NCBI GenBank assembly: GCA_963752035.1
Contig: CAVVWZ010000031.1
Coordinates: forward strand, 3,115-67,114
Reading direction: 5' to 3'
DNA: 64,000 nucleotides
From: an uncultured delta proteobacterium
Lineage (GTDB): Bacteria > Desulfobacterota > WTBG01
Part shown: positions 32,005-52,830 of the stretch, piece after piece
How positions within the stretch are numbered: position 1 is the stretch's first letter
How the letters are laid out: every line of letters starts with the position of its first letter
The notes under the pieces: model-generated
Database searches by the model: none
Told to the model about the DNA's origin: nothing
The model's input: only the letters and a program-made list of their open reading frames with translations
Made by a program: the position numbers and the translations under genes

Positions 32005-32033
32005 AGAGAACAGAACCTCTCCCCTGTGTGTTT

Positions 32034-32090
32034 AGGGGTCAGGCCTACACATTTGACATGATTTTTGTCAAATGTGTAGGCCTGACCCCT
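32034..32090. repeat. Perfect 25+7+25 palindrome, copy 1 of a two-member family
   Basis: AGGGGTCAGGCCTACACATTTGACA / TGATTTT / TGTCAAATGTGTAGGCCTGACCCCT. It starts 30 bp after the uvrA stop. Confidence 0.85.
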
Positions 32091-46531: not shown

Positions 46532-46585
46532 GGGGTCAAACCTACACTTTTGACAAAAAAATGTCAAAAGTGTAGGTTTGACCCC
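46532..46585. repeat. Perfect 24+6+24 palindrome, copy 2 of the family seen at 32034
   Basis: GGGGTCAAACCTACACTTTTGACA / AAAAAA / TGTCAAAAGTGTAGGTTTGACCCC. It lies in the divergent ssb / 46916-gene spacer. Confidence 0.85.
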
Positions 46586-46915
46586 CAAAACAAGGAATAC
46601 TCATCACCGGATCTTCAAGGGTTTGCCCCCCATGTGTTTGAGTTGGAATGTCAAACTGGGTTCTAACTTATTGGATTGTAAGATCTTTGGTAAATGTCAA
46701 AGTTTTCCTCTCTATCGAGGTACCACCATATGTAGTTTAAATTGGGGACATATAAGATACATTAATATTGATTTAGAAAGGATTTTATGGTTTAATTTAA
46801 TATCATAAAAACAATATTAGGTGTTCAGATGAAGACACTTTTTAACATAACCCTACCTCATCTTAGACAGAGCAATCTAACCGGTGGGGTTTATCTGTTT
46901 GAGGGAGGGGAAACA

Positions 46916-48817
46916 ATGAAAAAATTATCTGTATTCACTATGGTTTTTTTAATTGTTTGCATCTCTACTTCTGTAAGCTACAGCGAATATTATTGGGCAA
47001 AGACTTATGGTGGGCCGGTATGACGTTGCCGAATCTATCATAAAAACTACTGATGGTAGGTTTCTTGTTTCCGGTGTTGCTAATCCGTTGGGCCAGGTGA
47101 ATTTGATTGGTCGATAACGAAAGTTGGCAGTAATGGGGAAATTCTCTGGCAAAAAACTTTTGGTGCAAGTATTGGTGGATTACGGAAGTCCATCATTGCA
47201 TCAAACAACCGATGGAAACTATCATAGTCACAGAGTTATTCCGATTCTTTTGGTGCTGGTGACCGGATGCATGGATATTAAAGTTTGATTCAGTGGCAAT
47301 GATTATTATGGCTGAAGACTTACGGAGGAGTGGCTATGATGATGCTCAATCCATCCAGCAGACACAGATGAGGGGTATATAGCAGTAGGAAGTACCGGCT
47401 CTTTTGGCGATGGGAGTTCTGACATATGTGTTATGAAACTCCATTCCAATGGAAATATTATGTGGCAGAAGACATATGGGGGAGAAGGTTATGATTAGTG
47501 CAGCAATCTATCCAGGAAACCTCAGATGGAGGATATATAGTCGTGGGATCAACATCCCTTTCTGGAGATGAATGGGGAGATAGTTTTCGCTTTAAAACTC
47601 AACAGTACCGGTGATATTTCCTGGTCGAAGGCTTTTGGTGTGTGCTGTGGAGATTTTGGTGAATTTGCTCACGAAGTTCTAGGAGAAGGATACATTGTAG
47701 GGGGAACTAATTACCATGAGGGTTATTATTACTACTGGCTGCTTAAGCTCGACTACAGCGGGAACATTACCTGGCAAAAAATGTATGGAATTTATGAGGC
47801 TGCGAACCATGCCTTTTCTTTTCACCAAACAGCAGATGGAGGATATGTTATAGCAGGTAGTTCTCTAGTATTTAGTCCAAGTGTAAATGATTTTGCTCTT
47901 GTGGTTAAATTAGATGGTAACGGTGATGTATTGTGGCACAAAACTTATGATGTAGGTGAATATACTACCATTATGTCTATCCAGCAAACAGTAGCAGGAG
48001 GGTACATAATGGTAGGTCATGCAGGATTTGGAACCACCTGGGAATCAAGATGTTTTAATATTCCAACTTGATAACACAGGGAACATTCCTGATTGTGATC
48101 TGATAAGTAATAAATATTTCATTTTTTCTGAAACAACTGTTTCACCTGAAGATTTTAGCTTTACCGTTCAAACATCAATTCCCACTATTACAGACACTAC
48201 TATTGTACCCCAAGATTTTTCAACAGTGATTTCTGATATCTGCTGTTATGATGATACCAGCGATGCTGACCAGGATGGTGTAGGAGATGTTTGTGATCCT
48301 GATGATGATAATGATGGAGTATGTGACCCGGGTGTTTCTGATTCCATATGTACCGGATCAGACAATTGTCCTTATACACCAAATGGTTCTGAAGGAGGTA
48401 CCTGCACTGCGGGAGCAACCTATAAAATTGGTAGGCCCTGCATAAATCATGCTGAATGTGAAGCGAGTGGCTTCTGAAGTACAAATCAGGAAGATACTTA
48501 TCCTCCAGAAGGGAATGGAATAGGAGATGCTTGCGAGTGTGAAGGGAACTTTGATTGTGATGAAGATCATGATGGCTCTGATGCCGCAACCTTCAAGATA
48601 GATTTTGGACAGAAGCACATTTAGCAATCCTTGCGAAACTAGTGATCCATGCAATGGAGATTTTGATTGTGATAACGATTGTGATGGGACTGATGCTGCA
48701 AAATTCAAAGAAGATTTCGGAAGAAGTGGTTTTAACAATCCCTGTCCTACTTGTGAAGTAGGAGATTGGTGTGTATATCCCTACAATAGTTTGAATCATT
48801 CTTCTGATGACCAGTAA
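46916..48817 (+). pseudogene. Secreted repeat protein A, heavily frame-broken. Domains: signal peptide, about seven W-x-K-T-Y-G-G type propeller-like repeats, TSP3-like D-rich repeats, dockerin-like CxGDFDCDxDxDGxDAxxFK repeats
   Basis: It begins MKKLSVFTMVFLIVCISTSVSYS. Homologous repeat units can be followed only by switching frame many times between 47000 and 47570. Longer intact pieces are 47568-48071, 48019-48477 and 48605-48817. There is an in-frame TGA at 48475. Confidence 0.6.
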
Positions 48818-48854: not shown

Positions 48855-49385
48855 GGATGAAGACACAATATATTGTGGTATGTTACAATCTTGGTTAAAA
48901 ATTGTAACATACTGCACCCATTAAAAGGCTAATGTCAAGAGGGAACACCTCTCCTGTAATAAAAAGTTTGGCTTTTTTACAGTGTAGTACCATGATGTCT
49001 CAATCCGGCTTTGCTTTCGCACCCGTGGTTTCATTGTATAGTATAGTTACGAAACAGTAGTGACCAGTACTGCCTCGCACCATGCACCCATCAGGATCAA
49101 GGCTTATAAGAGTATACTTCCCTCTTTGCCCCTGGCACTTGTTCGTGCCCCAGAAAACCTTCGGTTCCATACCAGTGTCCATTGGTTTTATCTCAAATAT
49201 CATGGCTGTACACCAGCAATTCATGGCTCATGGTATAGGCGAAACAGTAAACCGTGTGAGACATATTATAATCCTTTAGTATCCAAGGATGTGGCAGATT
49301 ACCAATCAAATAGTGTGGTTTAGTCCCAGCAGAATGTTATAGGTTCACTGCCACATCCCTTTCTTACACAAATACCCGTGAGGGA

Positions 49386-50383
49386 TCAAACTCTCGTCTG
49401 ATCCCGTATGATATAGTAACAGGCTCGGGCTAGCTTGTGGGCTATTGTTTTTCTCGCCACGATCAGATTGGTCTTAGCCATCTTCCTTTGATAGTAACGC
49501 TTCACGTACTCGTAATGCCGCAGTGCATGGTGTGCTGCCTCTACATATGCCCAGGACAAGTGCTTGTTTCCATTTTTACGGTTTCCTTTTCCTTTGACTT
49601 TTTCGTTCGAAAACCTCTTGCTTCCCACACACCGGCAATAGGATGCATAGTTTCCTACCTTCTCAAATCTCTCTATGGGACCGGTCTCATACATGATGGT
49701 CAAAGCCAGAATCTTCTTGTATCCCTGGTACCGTCATCAGCAACCTGTATTCATCTCTGAGTTTTGCAGCCTTGTGGATTGTTTTTTCTAATTGCTTGTA
49801 TTCTTTCAGCTAAAAAGAGTATTGTGGCAATGCTTACCTTGCCTGATACTACCAGGTGTTTATCATGGAAAAGGTGTTCTACATCATCTTCACTCAGTTT
49901 CTTGACGGCATTGCCATTCATGCTCTTACCCAGGTTCCGGGAAACAAGATTCTGAAAGCTTTGTATCTGGAGCGTGCGTTGTTGTACTAATTGCATCCGT
50001 TTCCGTAAGAGGTCTCGTATCGGTCGTTCCTCTTTCGGATAAATATATCCTGTCGGCAGGATACCAAGACGGAGCAGGTTCGCCAGGTGAAAGGCATCGG
50101 TAACGTCATCTGAATGTTTGAGCCCTGTATACTGCTTAATTGCTGAGGGATTTGCCAGATGTATAGTGTATCCCTCCTCGATCAGTCCATCTACCAGCCA
50201 ATACCAGTTGTAGGTCGATTCAACCACTATTCCTTTAACCTGGTCCCGGTAGGGCTTCAGTGCATGTAGTACCAGCCTCAAATCATTTTTTGTTTTCTTC
50301 TTGAACACTTTTTTGTTATCATTATCAATAATTGCTGTATAGCTGTTGTTTGAGTGTAAATCTATTCCTACGTAATGGTCCAT
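49386..50383 (-). pseudogene. IS110-family DEDD recombinase/transposase, frame broken twice (near 49810 and 49715)
   Basis: The N-terminus MDHYVGIDLHSNNSY matches the DEDD_Tnp_IS110 type. The middle part LLMTVPGI / KILALTIMYETGPIERF and the C-terminus YASYCRCV...GNKHLSWAYVEAA match the Transposase_20 type. They are recovered from three frames. Confidence 0.75.
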
Positions 50384-50563
50384 GATGCACCTCCTGTTAA
50401 ATGGTTAATAGTTTGTCTCGTAACCATTATAAACCTACAGGAAAGTGTTTTCCATGGGCCTTTTATATGATTATCAAATGTGTTGTACTCGACCTTCTCA
50501 AATAAAAACTCAACATTGAGTTGGAATGTCCAGGTTGACTCCCAAAAAAATTCCATGATTGTT
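50384..50563 (-). ncRNA. Candidate IS110 guide (bridge-type) RNA region, hypothesis only
   Basis: The region has no ORF and several hairpins (50400-50428 8-bp stem, AACTCAA/TTGAGTT at 50507-50522). It contains a 15-nt copy of the IS-free paralogous site. Confidence 0.25.
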
Positions 50564-50805
50564 TTGGAATGTCAAACTGGGTTCTAAATTATTGGATTGT
50601 AAGATCTTTGGTAAATGTCACAGTTTTTCTCTCGATTGAGATACCACTATATATTGACATTTGATATCGATTTGGGGTTTAATTTATTGTATAGTTGAAT
50701 ATTAATTGGGTGTTCCAATGAAAACACTTATTTGACATAACCCTACCTCATTTTAGACGGAGAAGTCTAAGCAGGTGGGGTTTATTTGTTTGAGGGGGGA
50801 ATACA

Positions 50806-52483
50806 ATGAACCTTAGAAAATATCACTAGTTTTTGTTGTATGCTGTGCTTGTTTTGTTATGGTAAGTAGTACCAATGCTTTTGGCTCTTGGAGCATAGAA
50901 ACCTTGGATAGTATGGAGATGTAGGCTATGATACCTCCATATCAGTTGATTCACAAGACAAGGTACACATCAGTTATTATAATATACACATGACCTATTA
51001 AATACATTACCAACACCACAGGTTCCTGGGTACAGAGACGCTGGATGTCTCAAATTATGTAGGGTCCGTTTACTTCCACCTCTCTAGCAATTGACTCTCA
51101 AGATAAGGTGCACATCAGTTATTCTTAGTTCTTGCTTTTATAATCTTTGGATTTTGGAATATCATACACCACCAATGCAACAGGTTCGTGGGTAGCAGAG
51201 ACCCTGGGTAGCGTTGGAGACTGCACCCCATGTCTACCTCCATAGCAGTTGACTCACAGGACAAGGTGCACATCAGCTATGGTGGCCCCTTAAATACATC
51301 ACCAATGCCACAGGTTCCTGGGTAGCAGAAACGCTGGATAGCCCAGGCAGGCATTCCTCCATAGCGATTGACTCACAAGACAAGGTTCACATCAGCTATG
51401 TTGATAAGACTAATGATGACCTTAAATATAATACAAATGTCACTGGTTCCTGGATAGCAGAGACCCTGGATAGCGGTGGAGAATTTATAGGCAATTCCAC
51501 CTCTATAGCAGTTGACTCACAAGATAGGGTGCACATCAGTTATTATGATGCTACTAACGATGACCTTAAATACATTACCAATACCACAGGTTCCTGGGTG
51601 GCGGAAACGTTGGATAGCGTCTGGTATCTATTATAGATGGTAATAGCCACCTCCATAGCGATTGACTCACAGGATAAGGTGCACATCAGCTATTATGATA
51701 ATTATCACTGTGACTTAAAATATGCATGATGTGAAGTGGATCACGGAAACTACAGGTCCATGGGTTTACAGAGACAGTGGATAGCAGTGGAAGTGTAGGC
51801 ACGTGGAACTCCACAGCAGTTGACTCACAAGACAGGGTGCACATCAGCTATTTTGATAATACGAACGGAGACCTTAAATACGCCAAGCAATGTCTTGCAC
51901 CGGATTCTGATTGTGATGATATCCTGGATTATGAGGATAATTGTCCTGAAAACTTTAATCCAAGCCAAGTGGACACAGATGCTGACAGTATTGGAGATGT
52001 CTGTGACAACTGTCCTTTACACCCAAATAGTCCAGAGATAGGTATCTGCACCTGGGCATACACAGGTACAACCTGTTTGAGTGATGAGGAGTGTGGATAT
52101 GCGGGTTTTTGCAGTATAGATCAGGCAGACAACATTGATTGCGACTTGCAAGACAAATTTTGATTGCGATTACGATGTAGATGGGACTGATGCTGCTAAT
52201 TTTAAATTACATTTTGGAAGAAGCCTGTTTGACAATCCTTGTACAAATGGTGAGCCATGCAAGGGCGATTTTGAGTGTGATGGAGATGTGGATGGAAGTA
52301 ATGCAGCTGAGTTCAAGGGACGTTTTGGCACAGTTCCATTTCCACCGTATGGTTATTGCTTGTCCTGTGTTGATGGAGTATATCAATACGATTGCTCATA
52401 CTAAAATTATTTTCATTAATTTATTCAACAACCCCTGTCCGGCTTATGCAGTAGGGGAGTGGTGTGTGTATCCATTGCCATAA
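50806..52483 (+). pseudogene. Secreted repeat protein B, heavily frame-broken. It shares leader, signal peptide and C-terminal module with gene A but has seven different (S-I-A-x-D-S-Q-D-K-V-H-I-S-Y type) propeller-like repeats
   Basis: ATG 50806 is followed by a stop after 7 codons. The signal peptide (KISLVFVVCCACFVMVSSTNA) continues in another frame. Intact pieces are 51777-52163, 52135-52404 and 52181-52483. Confidence 0.6.
50940..51890 (+). repeat. Seven tandem coding repeats of 119-158 bp
   Basis: The anchor CACATCAG recurs at 50966, 51111, 51269, 51388, 51532, 51682 and 51839, inside conserved GACTCACA[AG]GA[CT]A[AG]GGT.CACATCAG[CT]TAT blocks. Confidence 0.85.
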
Positions 52484-52511
52484 GATTTTGAAGCATAATT
52501 CAGACTAATGA

Positions 52512-52545
52512 AGCCTCTCAGCAATAACCCTGAGGGGCTTTTTCC
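52512..52545 (+). terminator. Rho-independent terminator of gene B
   Basis: AGCCTCTCAG...CTGAGGGGCT stem followed by T5. Confidence 0.7.
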
Positions 52546-52830
52546 TTTGGTCACCAACCCCAGATATAGTGGTGTTTGGAATTAGCCAGAAACCTTGACA
52601 TTCTGCAAAAATGTTGGGTACTCAGGTTCCGAAGTAATAACGCATAATACAAAAAGAATGTTGAACTCTGCTTGCTGGAAAGGGATTGTATATAAGTTCT
52701 CGAACCCTAAAGCGAAGAATGATTTTCCCGTTAACCTTGAGGATGCCTATAGTAACAGGCTCAAGAAATGTGGTAAATCAGTGAGGGACGTTGGTAAATA
52801 GATGCATAGCCAACTCGACAAAAAAGTAAG

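What the first reader, a model, noticed from the sequence alone, without database searches (positions are those of the whole stretch)
49331..50573. IS110-family element whose non-coding 5' end contains an exact 15-nt copy of the IS-free paralogous site, making it a candidate bridge/guide RNA
The recombinase has IS110 hallmarks. IS110/IS1111 elements are known from 2024 bridge RNA and seekRNA work to encode a structured RNA in the non-coding end next to the recombinase gene, with loops that carry short copies of the target and of the element ends.

- **Non-coding 5' end:** the 132-180 bp 5' of the gene (50384-50563, minus strand) has no ORF and is hairpin rich. It has an 8-bp stem at 50400-50407/50421-50428 and AACTCAA/TTGAGTT at 50507-50522.
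- **15-nt match:** it contains TTGAGTTGGAATGTC (50516-50530), identical to 46638-46652 in the uninterrupted paralogous leader 3.9 kb upstream.
- **Outer repeat:** 33 bp further out, TTGGAATGTC recurs (50564-50573) exactly where homology to the IS-free copy resumes.
- **Third copy:** a degenerate copy, AGAATGTTATAGGTTCACTGCC (49331-49352), aligns to GGAATGTCCAGGTTGACTCCC (50523-50543) with about 17 matches. It lies just 3' of the recombinase stop, so the roughly 1.2-kb unit is bracketed by direct repeats.

An alternative reading is that the 15-mer is simply the edge of the segmental duplication, and the 43 bp is an unrelated insertion with a 10-bp duplication.
Basis: partly seen in the sequence, partly recalled or inferred. 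Interest (0 to 1): 0.7.

Follow-up and report, generated by a model that had tools for sequence, protein, structure and literature searches.

The report
IS1111-like insertion sequence, downstream guide RNA
This is a decayed copy of a known kind of RNA-guided jumping gene (IS110/IS1111 family) whose guide RNA lies after the recombinase gene, not before it.

Summary

- **The element.** It is an IS110-family insertion sequence of 1,558 bp (window 48917-50474, minus strand). It is bounded by a TG core on each side.
- **How the ends were set.** I compared more than 15 other copies. I also used an unoccupied copy of the same target 2 kb away (52598-52614, ACATTTT-TG-CAGAATGT).
- **The 5' side.** Only 91 nt upstream of the start codon belong to the element. 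The 15-mer (50516-50530) lies 42-56 nt outside it, in a repeated host intergenic sequence. Many other copies lack it.
- **Layout.** It is IS1111-like: 13-nt subterminal inverted repeats, a 338-aa recombinase (here broken by three +1 insertions) and a 447-nt conserved 3' non-coding region.
- **The guide RNA.** A hairpin directly after the stop codon (49283-49361) holds two variable segments. One is complementary to the right flank and the other is identical to the left flank. Both co-vary with the flanks across about 50 relatives. A third guide (49083-49092) copies the right end.

Verdict: a new member of a known kind, of low to moderate interest.

The parts
48917..50474 (-). The insertion sequence proper (1,558 bp). 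Its left end starts ATAATCATATAAAAGG and its right end finishes CCTTTTAATGGG.
   Evidence: Conservation boundaries among other copies. With the element and one TG removed, the flanks of the window, L001 and L166 align colinearly with an uninterrupted site.
50475..50476 (-). Core dinucleotide TG at the left junction (left target, TG, left end).
   Evidence: TG is present at both junctions and only once in the empty site.
48915..48916 (-). Core dinucleotide TG at the right junction (right end, TG, right target).
   Evidence: Same as for the left core.
49364..50383 (-). IS110-family DEDD recombinase gene. In this copy it is a pseudogene with three +1 insertions near 49796, 49718 and 49393.
   Evidence: Pfam PF01548 and PF02371. 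Three-frame translation. Intact 338-aa homologues at 94% identity. Indel map against L001, L006, L166 and L002. NCBIfam NF033542 on the intact homologue.
50384..50474 (-). The short 5' non-coding left end (91 nt). It holds the left subterminal repeat, a promoter-like TGGAAA-17-TATAAT, the 8-bp hairpin at 50400-50428 and the ribosome-binding site. No guide-like segment was found here.
50453..50465 (.). Left subterminal inverted repeat (CATGGGCCTTTTA on the + strand).
   Evidence: the repeat finder pair I4: 13 nt, 85% complementary to 48922-48934.
48922..48934 (.). Right subterminal inverted repeat (TAAAAGGCTAATG on the + strand).
48917..49363 (-). Long conserved 3' non-coding region (447 nt). 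It is the candidate bridge/seek RNA locus and consists of hairpin 1, a multi-branched domain of about 290 nt, and two terminal hairpins.
   Evidence: 80% mean column identity over 10 copies that span 70-97% protein identity. RNAalifold gives 106 pairs, 15 of them with compensatory changes. Fold z = -3.7.
49283..49361 (-). Hairpin 1, the target-binding loop. An 11-13 bp stem encloses an internal loop with two guide strands separated by a small stem-loop.
   Evidence: Fold z = -4.6. 75 instances lie just after the stop codon of related recombinase genes. 10 of 16 pairs show compensatory changes in 52 distinct sequences. It is the only strong hit of model R1 in the window (69.9 bits; this sequence is in the model's training set).
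49330..49341 (-). seg1 (UAUAACAUUCUG), the right-target guide. It is complementary to the top strand of the right flank CAGnATGTTA.
   Evidence: 10 of 11 match to this copy's own right junction. Self versus non-self 7.51 versus 5.14 of 11, none of 10,000 permutations reached the observed value.
49307..49316 (-). seg2 (ACACUAUUUG), the left-target guide. It has the same sense as the left flank plus the core, and is followed by AU, which equals the first two bases of the left end.
   Evidence: Mean suffix-run match to a copy's own left flank is 4.47 nt, against 1.53 for other copies' flanks; none of 10,000 permutations reached this. L007 and L090 differ as AGTAC and AGTTC in both the guide and the flank.
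49083..49092 (-). GAUGGGUGCA, a donor (right-end) guide. It is a sense copy of the right-end tip ATGGG, the core TG, and the first two bases of the right flank (CA).
   Evidence: Across 50 loci, GGG versus GGA agrees 50 of 50 and the two trailing bases agree 44 of 50.
48933..48938 (-). TTGACA in the right end. On circularisation it sits 17 nt upstream of GATAAT (core G plus the start of the left end), which would form a sigma-70-type junction promoter.
   Evidence: Read directly from the sequence once the ends were fixed. Junction promoters are a described feature of IS110-family elements (my own knowledge, not tested here).
50477..50563 (.). Host intergenic sequence between the left end and the leader. 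It is not part of the element.
   Evidence: Homologous segments lie upstream of the empty site at 52615-52680 and next to L001 and L005. The segment is absent from L002, L006, L007 and L090.
50564..50573 (+). Outer copy of TTGGAATGTC, where paralogy with 46643-46731 resumes.
46638..46652 (+). The matching 15-mer in the one-copy paralogous leader.
52598..52614 (-). Unoccupied target site ACATTTT-TG-CAGAATGT in the next intergenic region.

Best explanation
The locus holds a decayed copy of an IS110-family insertion sequence with IS1111-type architecture (window 48917-50474, minus strand).

**Element layout.** It has a 91-nt left end and a 338-codon DEDD recombinase gene, here broken by three +1 insertions. 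It also has a 447-nt right end that encodes the guide (bridge/seek) RNA, and 13-nt subterminal inverted repeats.

**Target.** It sits in an imperfectly palindromic site, ...ACATTTT-TG-CAGAATGT.... This site lies inside a repeated host intergenic module found upstream of a family of surface-protein genes. TG is the shared core.

**Guides.**
- Directly after the stop codon, a hairpin presents two guide strands in an internal loop.
- The 5' strand is complementary to the top strand of the right target flank.
- The 3' strand has the same sequence as the left target flank plus the core, so it would pair with the bottom strand.
- A further sense-strand guide in the next RNA domain copies the tip of the right end, the core and two bases of the right flank.

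**Inferred, not shown.** The recombinase-RNA complex would pair these guides with a circularised element and a target and exchange strands at TG, as shown for IS621 and ISEc11. The circle junction would create a TTGACA-17-GATAAT promoter.

The 15-mer and the 10-bp repeat are not guides. They are copies of a host half-site motif (TTGACATTC / GAATGTCAA) in the repeated intergenic module. The two-copy versus one-copy difference between the paralogous leaders is a 43-bp duplication or deletion between those repeats.
For: **Ends**
- Conservation among copies stops at ...TTTG|ATAATC and ...AATGGGTG|CAG.
- Two copies with identical recombinases (L002, L003) diverge exactly there.
- Joined flanks of three copies align with the uninterrupted site 52530-52700, with the central 17-mer exact.

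**Family**
- Pfam domains and NCBIfam NF033542 at 178 bits against a cutoff of 140.
- Weak matches to ISCro4 and IS621 in the PDB.
- Subterminal inverted repeats.
- A 447-nt 3' non-coding region against a 91-nt 5' one.

**Guide RNA**
- Hairpin 1 folds with z = -4.6 and shows compensatory changes in 10 of 16 pairs.
- 75 instances lie directly after the stop codon of related genes.
- Anchored guide-versus-flank matches far exceed non-self pairings; none of 10,000 permutations reached the observed values on either side.
- The close group has guide and right flank both CAGAATGTTA. The L007 group has CCAAAACTTA in both. The left-flank guide differs as AGTAC and AGTTC in L007 and L090, matching their flanks.
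- The right-end guide agrees in 44 of 50 loci for the two trailing bases and 50 of 50 for GGG versus GGA.
- The order of guides (top-strand match 5' of bottom-strand match) is the one reported for IS1111-family seekRNAs (PMC11187229). Location in the right end agrees with PMC11208160.

**The 15-mer is host DNA**
-.
- No guide-hairpin hit in 50384-50600.
Against: - There is no expression or biochemical evidence. All RNA roles are inferred from sequence.
- A guide complementary to the left end (the fourth guide expected by analogy with IS621) was not identified.
- In this particular copy the left-target guide matches its flank over only ATTTG. The copy is also a pseudogene, so it may be inactive.
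- L086 and L166 share the roughly 100 nt next to the left end with the window at 82-89% identity, while more distal flank diverges. On its own, that could suggest a longer mobile unit.
- The permutation tests do not correct for relatedness of the loci. Within the single largest target class the signal is weaker (p = 0.009).
- The exact crossover position within TG cannot be resolved from sequence.
Confidence: 0.85

Rival explanations
1. The 132-180 nt upstream of the recombinase gene is transcribed into a bridge RNA, and the 15-mer TTGAGTTGGAATGTC is its target guide.
For: - The 15-mer is an exact match to the IS-free paralogue.
- The region folds somewhat better than shuffles (z = -2.6).
- IS110-group elements do carry 5' bridge RNAs (PMC11208160).
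Against: - The 15-mer lies 42-56 nt outside the conserved left end. Other copies have unrelated sequence there.
- The homologous segment sits next to an empty target as host DNA.
- A contiguous 15-nt copy is unlike the split guides seen in this clade.
- No Rfam or clade-model hit.
- The real guides were found 3' of the gene and co-vary with the flanks.
- The paralogous "site" at 46638 does not contain the actual target sequence.
Confidence: 0.03
2. A longer mobile unit. In the sub-lineage of the window, L086 and L166, the element has captured about 100 nt of former flank (with two target-like repeats) and now moves together with it. This would resemble the modular or extended IS110 units described for ISPpu9.
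For: - The window versus L086, and L086 versus L166, share 82-89% identity over the 97-150 nt next to the left end, while more distal sequence is much more diverged.
- Modular circles are reported for ISPpu9 (PMC12288879, abstract only).
Against: - The homology boundary differs between pairs (about -105 for the window and L086, about -150 for L086 and L166). It runs into the leader motif TTTACCAAAGAT, which is also present in the IS-free paralogue.
- The innermost 57 nt have homologues at an empty site and beside L001 and L005.
- All of these copies sit in the same orientation in the same family of intergenic modules. Conserved host context therefore explains the similarity.
Confidence: 0.08
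3. The 33 bp between the two TTGGAATGTC copies is a tiny independent insertion that made a 10-bp target-site duplication. It would be unrelated to the IS.
For: There are exact 10-bp direct repeats flanking 33 bp, and the paralogue lacks the 43 bp.
Against: - 33 bp is too short for any known autonomous or miniature element.
- The two-copy arrangement is shared by L086 and L166, with substitutions in both repeats and in the spacer. It is therefore old and is inherited with the leader family.
- Simple duplication or deletion between short repeats suffices.
- Tandem Repeats Finder sees no array.
Confidence: 0.04

Closest known systems
IS1111-family elements with a 3' seekRNA (ISEc11, ISPa11, ISKpn4, ISPst6; Siddiquee et al. 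2024, PMC11187229)
   Same: - The long non-coding region lies downstream of the recombinase gene.
- Subterminal inverted repeats are present.
- The recombinase is about 338 aa.
- The RNA carries one segment complementary to the top strand and one to the bottom strand of the target, with the top-strand match 5' of the other.
- The target is a specific repeated sequence.
- Natural retargeting occurs by changing only the guide segments.
   Different: - The 3' non-coding region is 447 nt, against 82-154 nt for the tested seekRNAs.
- The C-terminal motif reads CRCVxSxxxSN rather than GL-P----S(T)G.
- Nothing has been tested experimentally.
IS621 / IS110-group bridge RNA (Durrant et al. 2024, PMC11208160; Hiraizumi et al. 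2024, PMC11208158)
   Same: - A DEDD recombinase with a C-terminal Ser domain.
- Internal-loop guides for the left and right target.
- A shared core dinucleotide.
- A separate guide for the element end.
- Two extra bases next to the core that match the partner DNA, like the handshake guides.
   Different: - The RNA is 3' of the gene, not 5'.
- The order of guides is reversed.
- The handshake-like bases sit on the sense (bottom-strand-pairing) guides.
- The core is TG, not CT.
- Protein similarity is weak (E about 1e-7).
- The fourth guide was not found.
ISPpu9 / ISPpu10 and other IS110-family elements that insert into repetitive extragenic palindromes (PMC12288879; bioRxiv 10.64898/2026.03.19.712850; abstracts only)
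   Same: Orientation-specific insertion into a multi-copy, partly palindromic intergenic repeat, so that the flanks of independent copies look alike.
   Different: The host repeat here is a leader or promoter-side module of a surface-protein gene family, not a classical REP element. No sRNA module was seen.

Membership tests
IS110 family (sensu lato) | N-terminal DEDD/RuvC-like domain (PF01548) plus C-terminal PF02371 domain | tested here: met
   PF01548 E = 1.6e-17 and PF02371 E = 3.8e-11 on the two ORF fragments. The intact homologue P0001 scores 178 bits on NF033542, "IS110 family RNA-guided transposase", against a cutoff of 140.
IS110 family (sensu lato) | Site-specific insertion without a target-site duplication, with a short core shared by element junction and target | tested here: met
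   TG lies at both junctions and once in the empty site. There is no other duplication.
IS110 family (sensu lato) | Intact recombinase reading frame (an active copy) | tested here: not met
   Three +1 insertions relative to four other copies. I did not test whether these are sequencing errors.
IS1111 subgroup | Longer non-coding region downstream of the recombinase gene | tested here: met
   447 nt on the 3' side against 91 nt on the 5' side.
IS1111 subgroup | Subterminal inverted repeats of 7-17 bp | tested here: met
   13 nt with 11 of 13 complementary, lying 5 nt from the right end and 9 nt from the left end.
IS1111 subgroup | Recombinase of 330-350 aa with the C-terminal motif GL-P----S(T)G (PMC11187229) | tested here: inconclusive
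   The length of 338 aa fits. At the aligned position the clade has CRCVxSxxxSN: the Ser is kept but GL, P and G are not. No phylogeny against ISfinder references could be made.
Bridge / seek RNA | Conserved structured RNA with compensatory base changes in the non-coding end | tested here: met
   Hairpin 1: 10 of 16 pairs compensatory in 52 sequences. Whole 3' region: 15 of 106 pairs.
Bridge / seek RNA | Loop segments that match both strands of the target and change with it | tested here: met
   (self versus non-self; none of 10,000 permutations reached the observed values). Differences between groups.
Bridge / seek RNA | Loop segments that match both element ends (donor-binding loop) | tested here: inconclusive
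   The right-end guide was found and co-varies. No convincing guide for the left end was found, and the left end is nearly invariant in the clade, so covariation cannot help.
Bridge / seek RNA | The RNA is expressed, binds the recombinase and is required for transposition | not testable with these tools
   No transcriptome or biochemical data.
Bridge / seek RNA | Match to a curated RNA family | tested here: not met
   No Rfam 15 match at gathering threshold or at E <= 10 in 49200-50800. I do not know whether Rfam holds a model for IS1111-type RNAs.
   The 15-mer region is absent from L002, L005, L006, L007 and L090, and it is homologous to host DNA at an empty site.

The most novel reading that the evidence does not exclude
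This clade may be a distinct, uncharacterised branch of RNA-guided IS110-family recombinases. It is found in deltaproteobacterial, Nitrospirota, gammaproteobacterial and other metagenome genomes.

Four features could set it apart:
- an SN rather than SG catalytic-serine motif;
- an unusually large RNA of about 450 nt;
- a target-binding hairpin that abuts the stop codon;
- handshake-type positions on the bottom-strand-pairing guides.

If so, strand-exchange order or RNA architecture would differ from both IS621 and ISEc11.
Probability: 0.2. Interest if true: 0.5.

Novelty: new member of a known kind. Interest (0 to 1): 0.25.

Why it matters
As stated, the finding would have been one more IS110-type bridge RNA, and it points to the wrong place.

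- **Practical lesson.** For site-specific elements, conserved flanks mimic element ends. An empty site is needed to set the boundaries. Short "target copies" next to an element can simply be host repeats.
- **Positive result.** This is a clean natural-covariation case. About 50 relatives show three guide segments in an IS1111-like 3' RNA. That would let the targets of this widespread environmental clade be predicted from sequence, and it offers further candidate programmable recombinases.
- **This copy.** It is probably dead.

Tried and rejected
- **Rfam.** Scans of the window and of 49200-50800 found nothing.
- **First boundary guess.** I first placed the ends at TTTGATAATC... and ...GCAGnATGT, from conservation alone. 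That was wrong. The last 4-9 nt on each side are conserved target, as the empty site showed. With the wrong ends the circle junction gave no promoter. With the right ends it gives TTGACA-17-GATAAT.
- **Remnant-end idea.** I considered that the left flank was a remnant right end or a tandem array of about 45-nt units. Tandem Repeats Finder found nothing, and only the 10-15 nt motif repeats.
- **Unanchored guide search.** Searching for guide matches anywhere in 200-700 nt regions was too noisy (self 7.0-7.4 against non-self 6.7-7.1 of 10). I replaced it with junction-anchored comparison.
- **Left-end guide.** I looked for a guide complementary to the left end (AUGAUUAU-type). Only non-conserved or partial matches turned up.
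- Three regular-expression calls needed fixing (45 returned only two spurious hits, 64 returned none, and 46 and 65 are the corrected versions).
- **Scan limits.** No collection-wide search for further empty sites was therefore possible.
Full report
**Observation**

The exact 15-mer TTGAGTTGGAATGTC is present at 50516-50530 and 46638-46652. The 10-mer TTGGAATGTC recurs at 50564-50573. Homology to the paralogous leader resumes at 50564 (92% over 89 bp, with a second block at 50705-50810).

The recombinase gene carries PF01548 and PF02371 but is split over three reading frames. A reconstructed 339-aa protein finds thousands of 338-aa homologues, the best at 94% identity.

**Other copies and the ends**

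I fetched copies from metagenomes and genomes:
- L001-L005;
- L006 and L007 and many relatives at 50-60% identity;
- L086-L091;
- L166-L168.

Upstream of the ATG, conservation extends only about 91-97 nt. Downstream of the stop codon it extends about 450 nt. The element therefore has the IS1111-type layout: a short left end and a long right end, as described in PMC11187229 and PMC11208160. The 15-mer lies outside the conserved left end. L002, L005, L006, L007 and L090 have unrelated sequence there.

**The empty site**

A BLAST of the left flank of L001 hit window 52624-52662. Read on the minus strand, 52530-52700 is an uninterrupted version of the same intergenic module:

...GTTCAACATTCTTTTTGTATTATGCGTTATTACTTCGGAACCTGAGTACCCAACATTTT-TG-CAGAATGTCAAGG...terminator.

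I removed the element plus one TG from the window, L001 and L166. The joined flanks then align colinearly with this site, and the central ACATTTTTGCAGAATGT is exact for L001. This has three consequences:
- It fixes the element at 48917-50474 (1,558 bp), with a TG core at 48915-16 and 50475-76.
- The "TTTG" and "CAGnATGT" that looked like conserved element ends are actually conserved target.

With these ends, several features fall into place:
- The element has 13-nt subterminal inverted repeats.
- The circle junction would read TTGACA-17 nt-GATAAT. This is read from the sequence, and a promoter role is inferred.
- An internal promoter-like TGGAAA-17-TATAAT lies in the left end.

**The guide RNA**

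Directly after the stop codon is a hairpin (49283-49361; z = -4.6). It has an 11-13 bp stem around an internal loop. The loop consists of GUGAACC, seg1, CUGG, a small loop, CC(A), seg2, and UGAUUGG.

The same scaffold occurs 75 times in the fetched loci, always just 3' of the recombinase gene. In 52 distinct sequences, 10 of 16 pairs show compensatory changes.

- **seg1.** It is complementary to the right flank next to the core. In the window the guide reads G-CAGAATGTTA and the flank G-CAGTATGTTA.
- **seg2.** It equals the left flank plus the core.
- **Anchored comparison.** When anchored on the junctions, a copy's own flank matches far better than other copies' flanks. On the left, the suffix run is 4.47 nt against 1.53. 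On the right, 7.51 of 11 against 5.14. None of 10,000 permutations reached the observed values. Within the largest target class alone p = 0.009.
- **Clear differences between groups.** The close group has CAGAATGTTA in guide and flank, while the L007, L090 and L091 group has CCAAAACTTA. The left guides AGTAC (L007) and AGTTC (L090) match their own flanks.
- **Order.** The top-strand match lies 5' of the bottom-strand match. This is the order reported for IS1111-family seekRNAs.
The motif at 49331-49352 overlaps seg1, so it is a real guide. It is complementary to the target's right half, not a terminal direct repeat.

The rest of the 3' region folds into a conserved multi-branched domain. In it, GAUGG(G/A)UG-NN (window 49083-49092) is a sense copy of the right-end tip, the core and the first two bases of the right flank. 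GGG versus GGA agrees in 50 of 50 loci, and NN agrees in 44 of 50.

seg2 likewise continues two bases (AU) into the left end. I read these extra bases as analogues of the IS621 handshake guides; that is inference. I could not find a guide for the left end.

A covariance model of hairpin 1 (R1) gives one strong hit in the window, at 49283-49361.

**What the 15-mer is**

- The host module contains several copies, in both orientations, of a half-site TTGACATTC / GAATGTCAA. The target's right half is one of them.
- The window, L086 and L166 have two direct copies 43 bp apart. L001, the empty site and the paralogous leader at 46638 have one.
- The IS-free leader matches the inner copy at its 5' edge and the outer copy at its 3' side. 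That is what a 43-bp duplication or deletion between the repeats would give.
- Upstream of 46638 the paralogy simply ends.

The similarity of the window, L086 and L166 over about 100 nt next to the left end could suggest a longer mobile unit. However, the homology boundaries differ between pairs and run into leader motifs that are also present without the element. I give that rival 0.08.

**State of this copy**

Three +1 insertions (near 49796, 49718 and 49393) break the gene. Two more single-base insertions lie in the 3' RNA region. The neighbouring paralogous genes are also fragmented. The cause could be decay or indel-prone assembly; I did not resolve which.

**Classification and novelty**

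The element is an IS110 family member with IS1111-type organisation. Its C-terminal motif is CRCVxSxxxSN throughout the clade, rather than GL-P----S(T)G. I therefore file it as IS1111-like and leave subgroup membership open.

RNA-guided targeting by a 3' RNA is already known for this kind of element. The finding is a new member of a known kind, and its headline claim is not supported.

Noticed in passing
window 52598-52614 (region 52530-52700, minus strand): An unoccupied, perfect-looking target site (ACATTTT-TG-CAGAATGT) for this element family lies 2.1 kb from the inserted copy, in the next intergenic region of the same gene array.
   Followed up: yes
window 50740-50806 and 46850-46917 (+ strand): Both paralogous leaders end in a conserved stem-loop (AACCCTACCTC...GGTGGGGTT) followed by a T-rich run and then GAGGG..ATG. 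This looks like a possible attenuator or regulatory leader. There is no Rfam match, and two sequences are too few for covariation.
   Followed up: partly
window 46918-48800 and 50807-52500 (+ strand): The two paralogous genes downstream of the leaders are broken into many short ORFs. They have internal repeats of about 130-150 nt (50931-51880) and Asp-rich, dockerin-like or thrombospondin-like C-terminal repeats. They are either decaying genes or an indel-prone assembly.
   Followed up: partly
window 46532-46585, related copy at 32023-32089: A near-perfect palindrome of about 54 nt (CAAACCTACACTTTTGACAAAAAAATGTCAAAAGTGTAGGTTTG) has a second copy 14 kb away. It may be a small repeated hairpin element.
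   Followed up: no
All fetched relatives, around residues 245-275 of the recombinase: The whole clade has SYCRCVxSxxxSNxKxKGxGNxKNGNKYL at the catalytic-serine region. That is SN where IS621, ISCro4 and IS1111-family logos have SG.
   Followed up: partly
L001 about 2290-2340: The right-end tip is tandemly duplicated (GGCCTTTTAATGGGT GGCCTTTTAATGGGTG) in this otherwise intact copy.
   Followed up: no
L003 2706-2819; L007 325-356: Solo fragments of the left end (113 nt at 84% identity, and 32 nt at 100%) lie near full copies. They could be remnants of earlier insertions or rearrangements.
   Followed up: no
L002 about 2610-2730 and L005 about 2610-2730 (170-290 nt upstream of the left end): A segment of about 120 nt is about 90% identical between two otherwise diverged flanks (CTTGTTATGGTAGCAAAATGGTAGCA...CCCCCCACCCGGG...). 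It may be another conserved non-coding element.
   Followed up: no
L168 after about position 1640: The right-end tip ...AATGGGTG is followed directly by internal 3'-region sequence (CCAGGGGCTCAGAGGG...). This is either a chimeric assembly or a rearranged copy.
   Followed up: no
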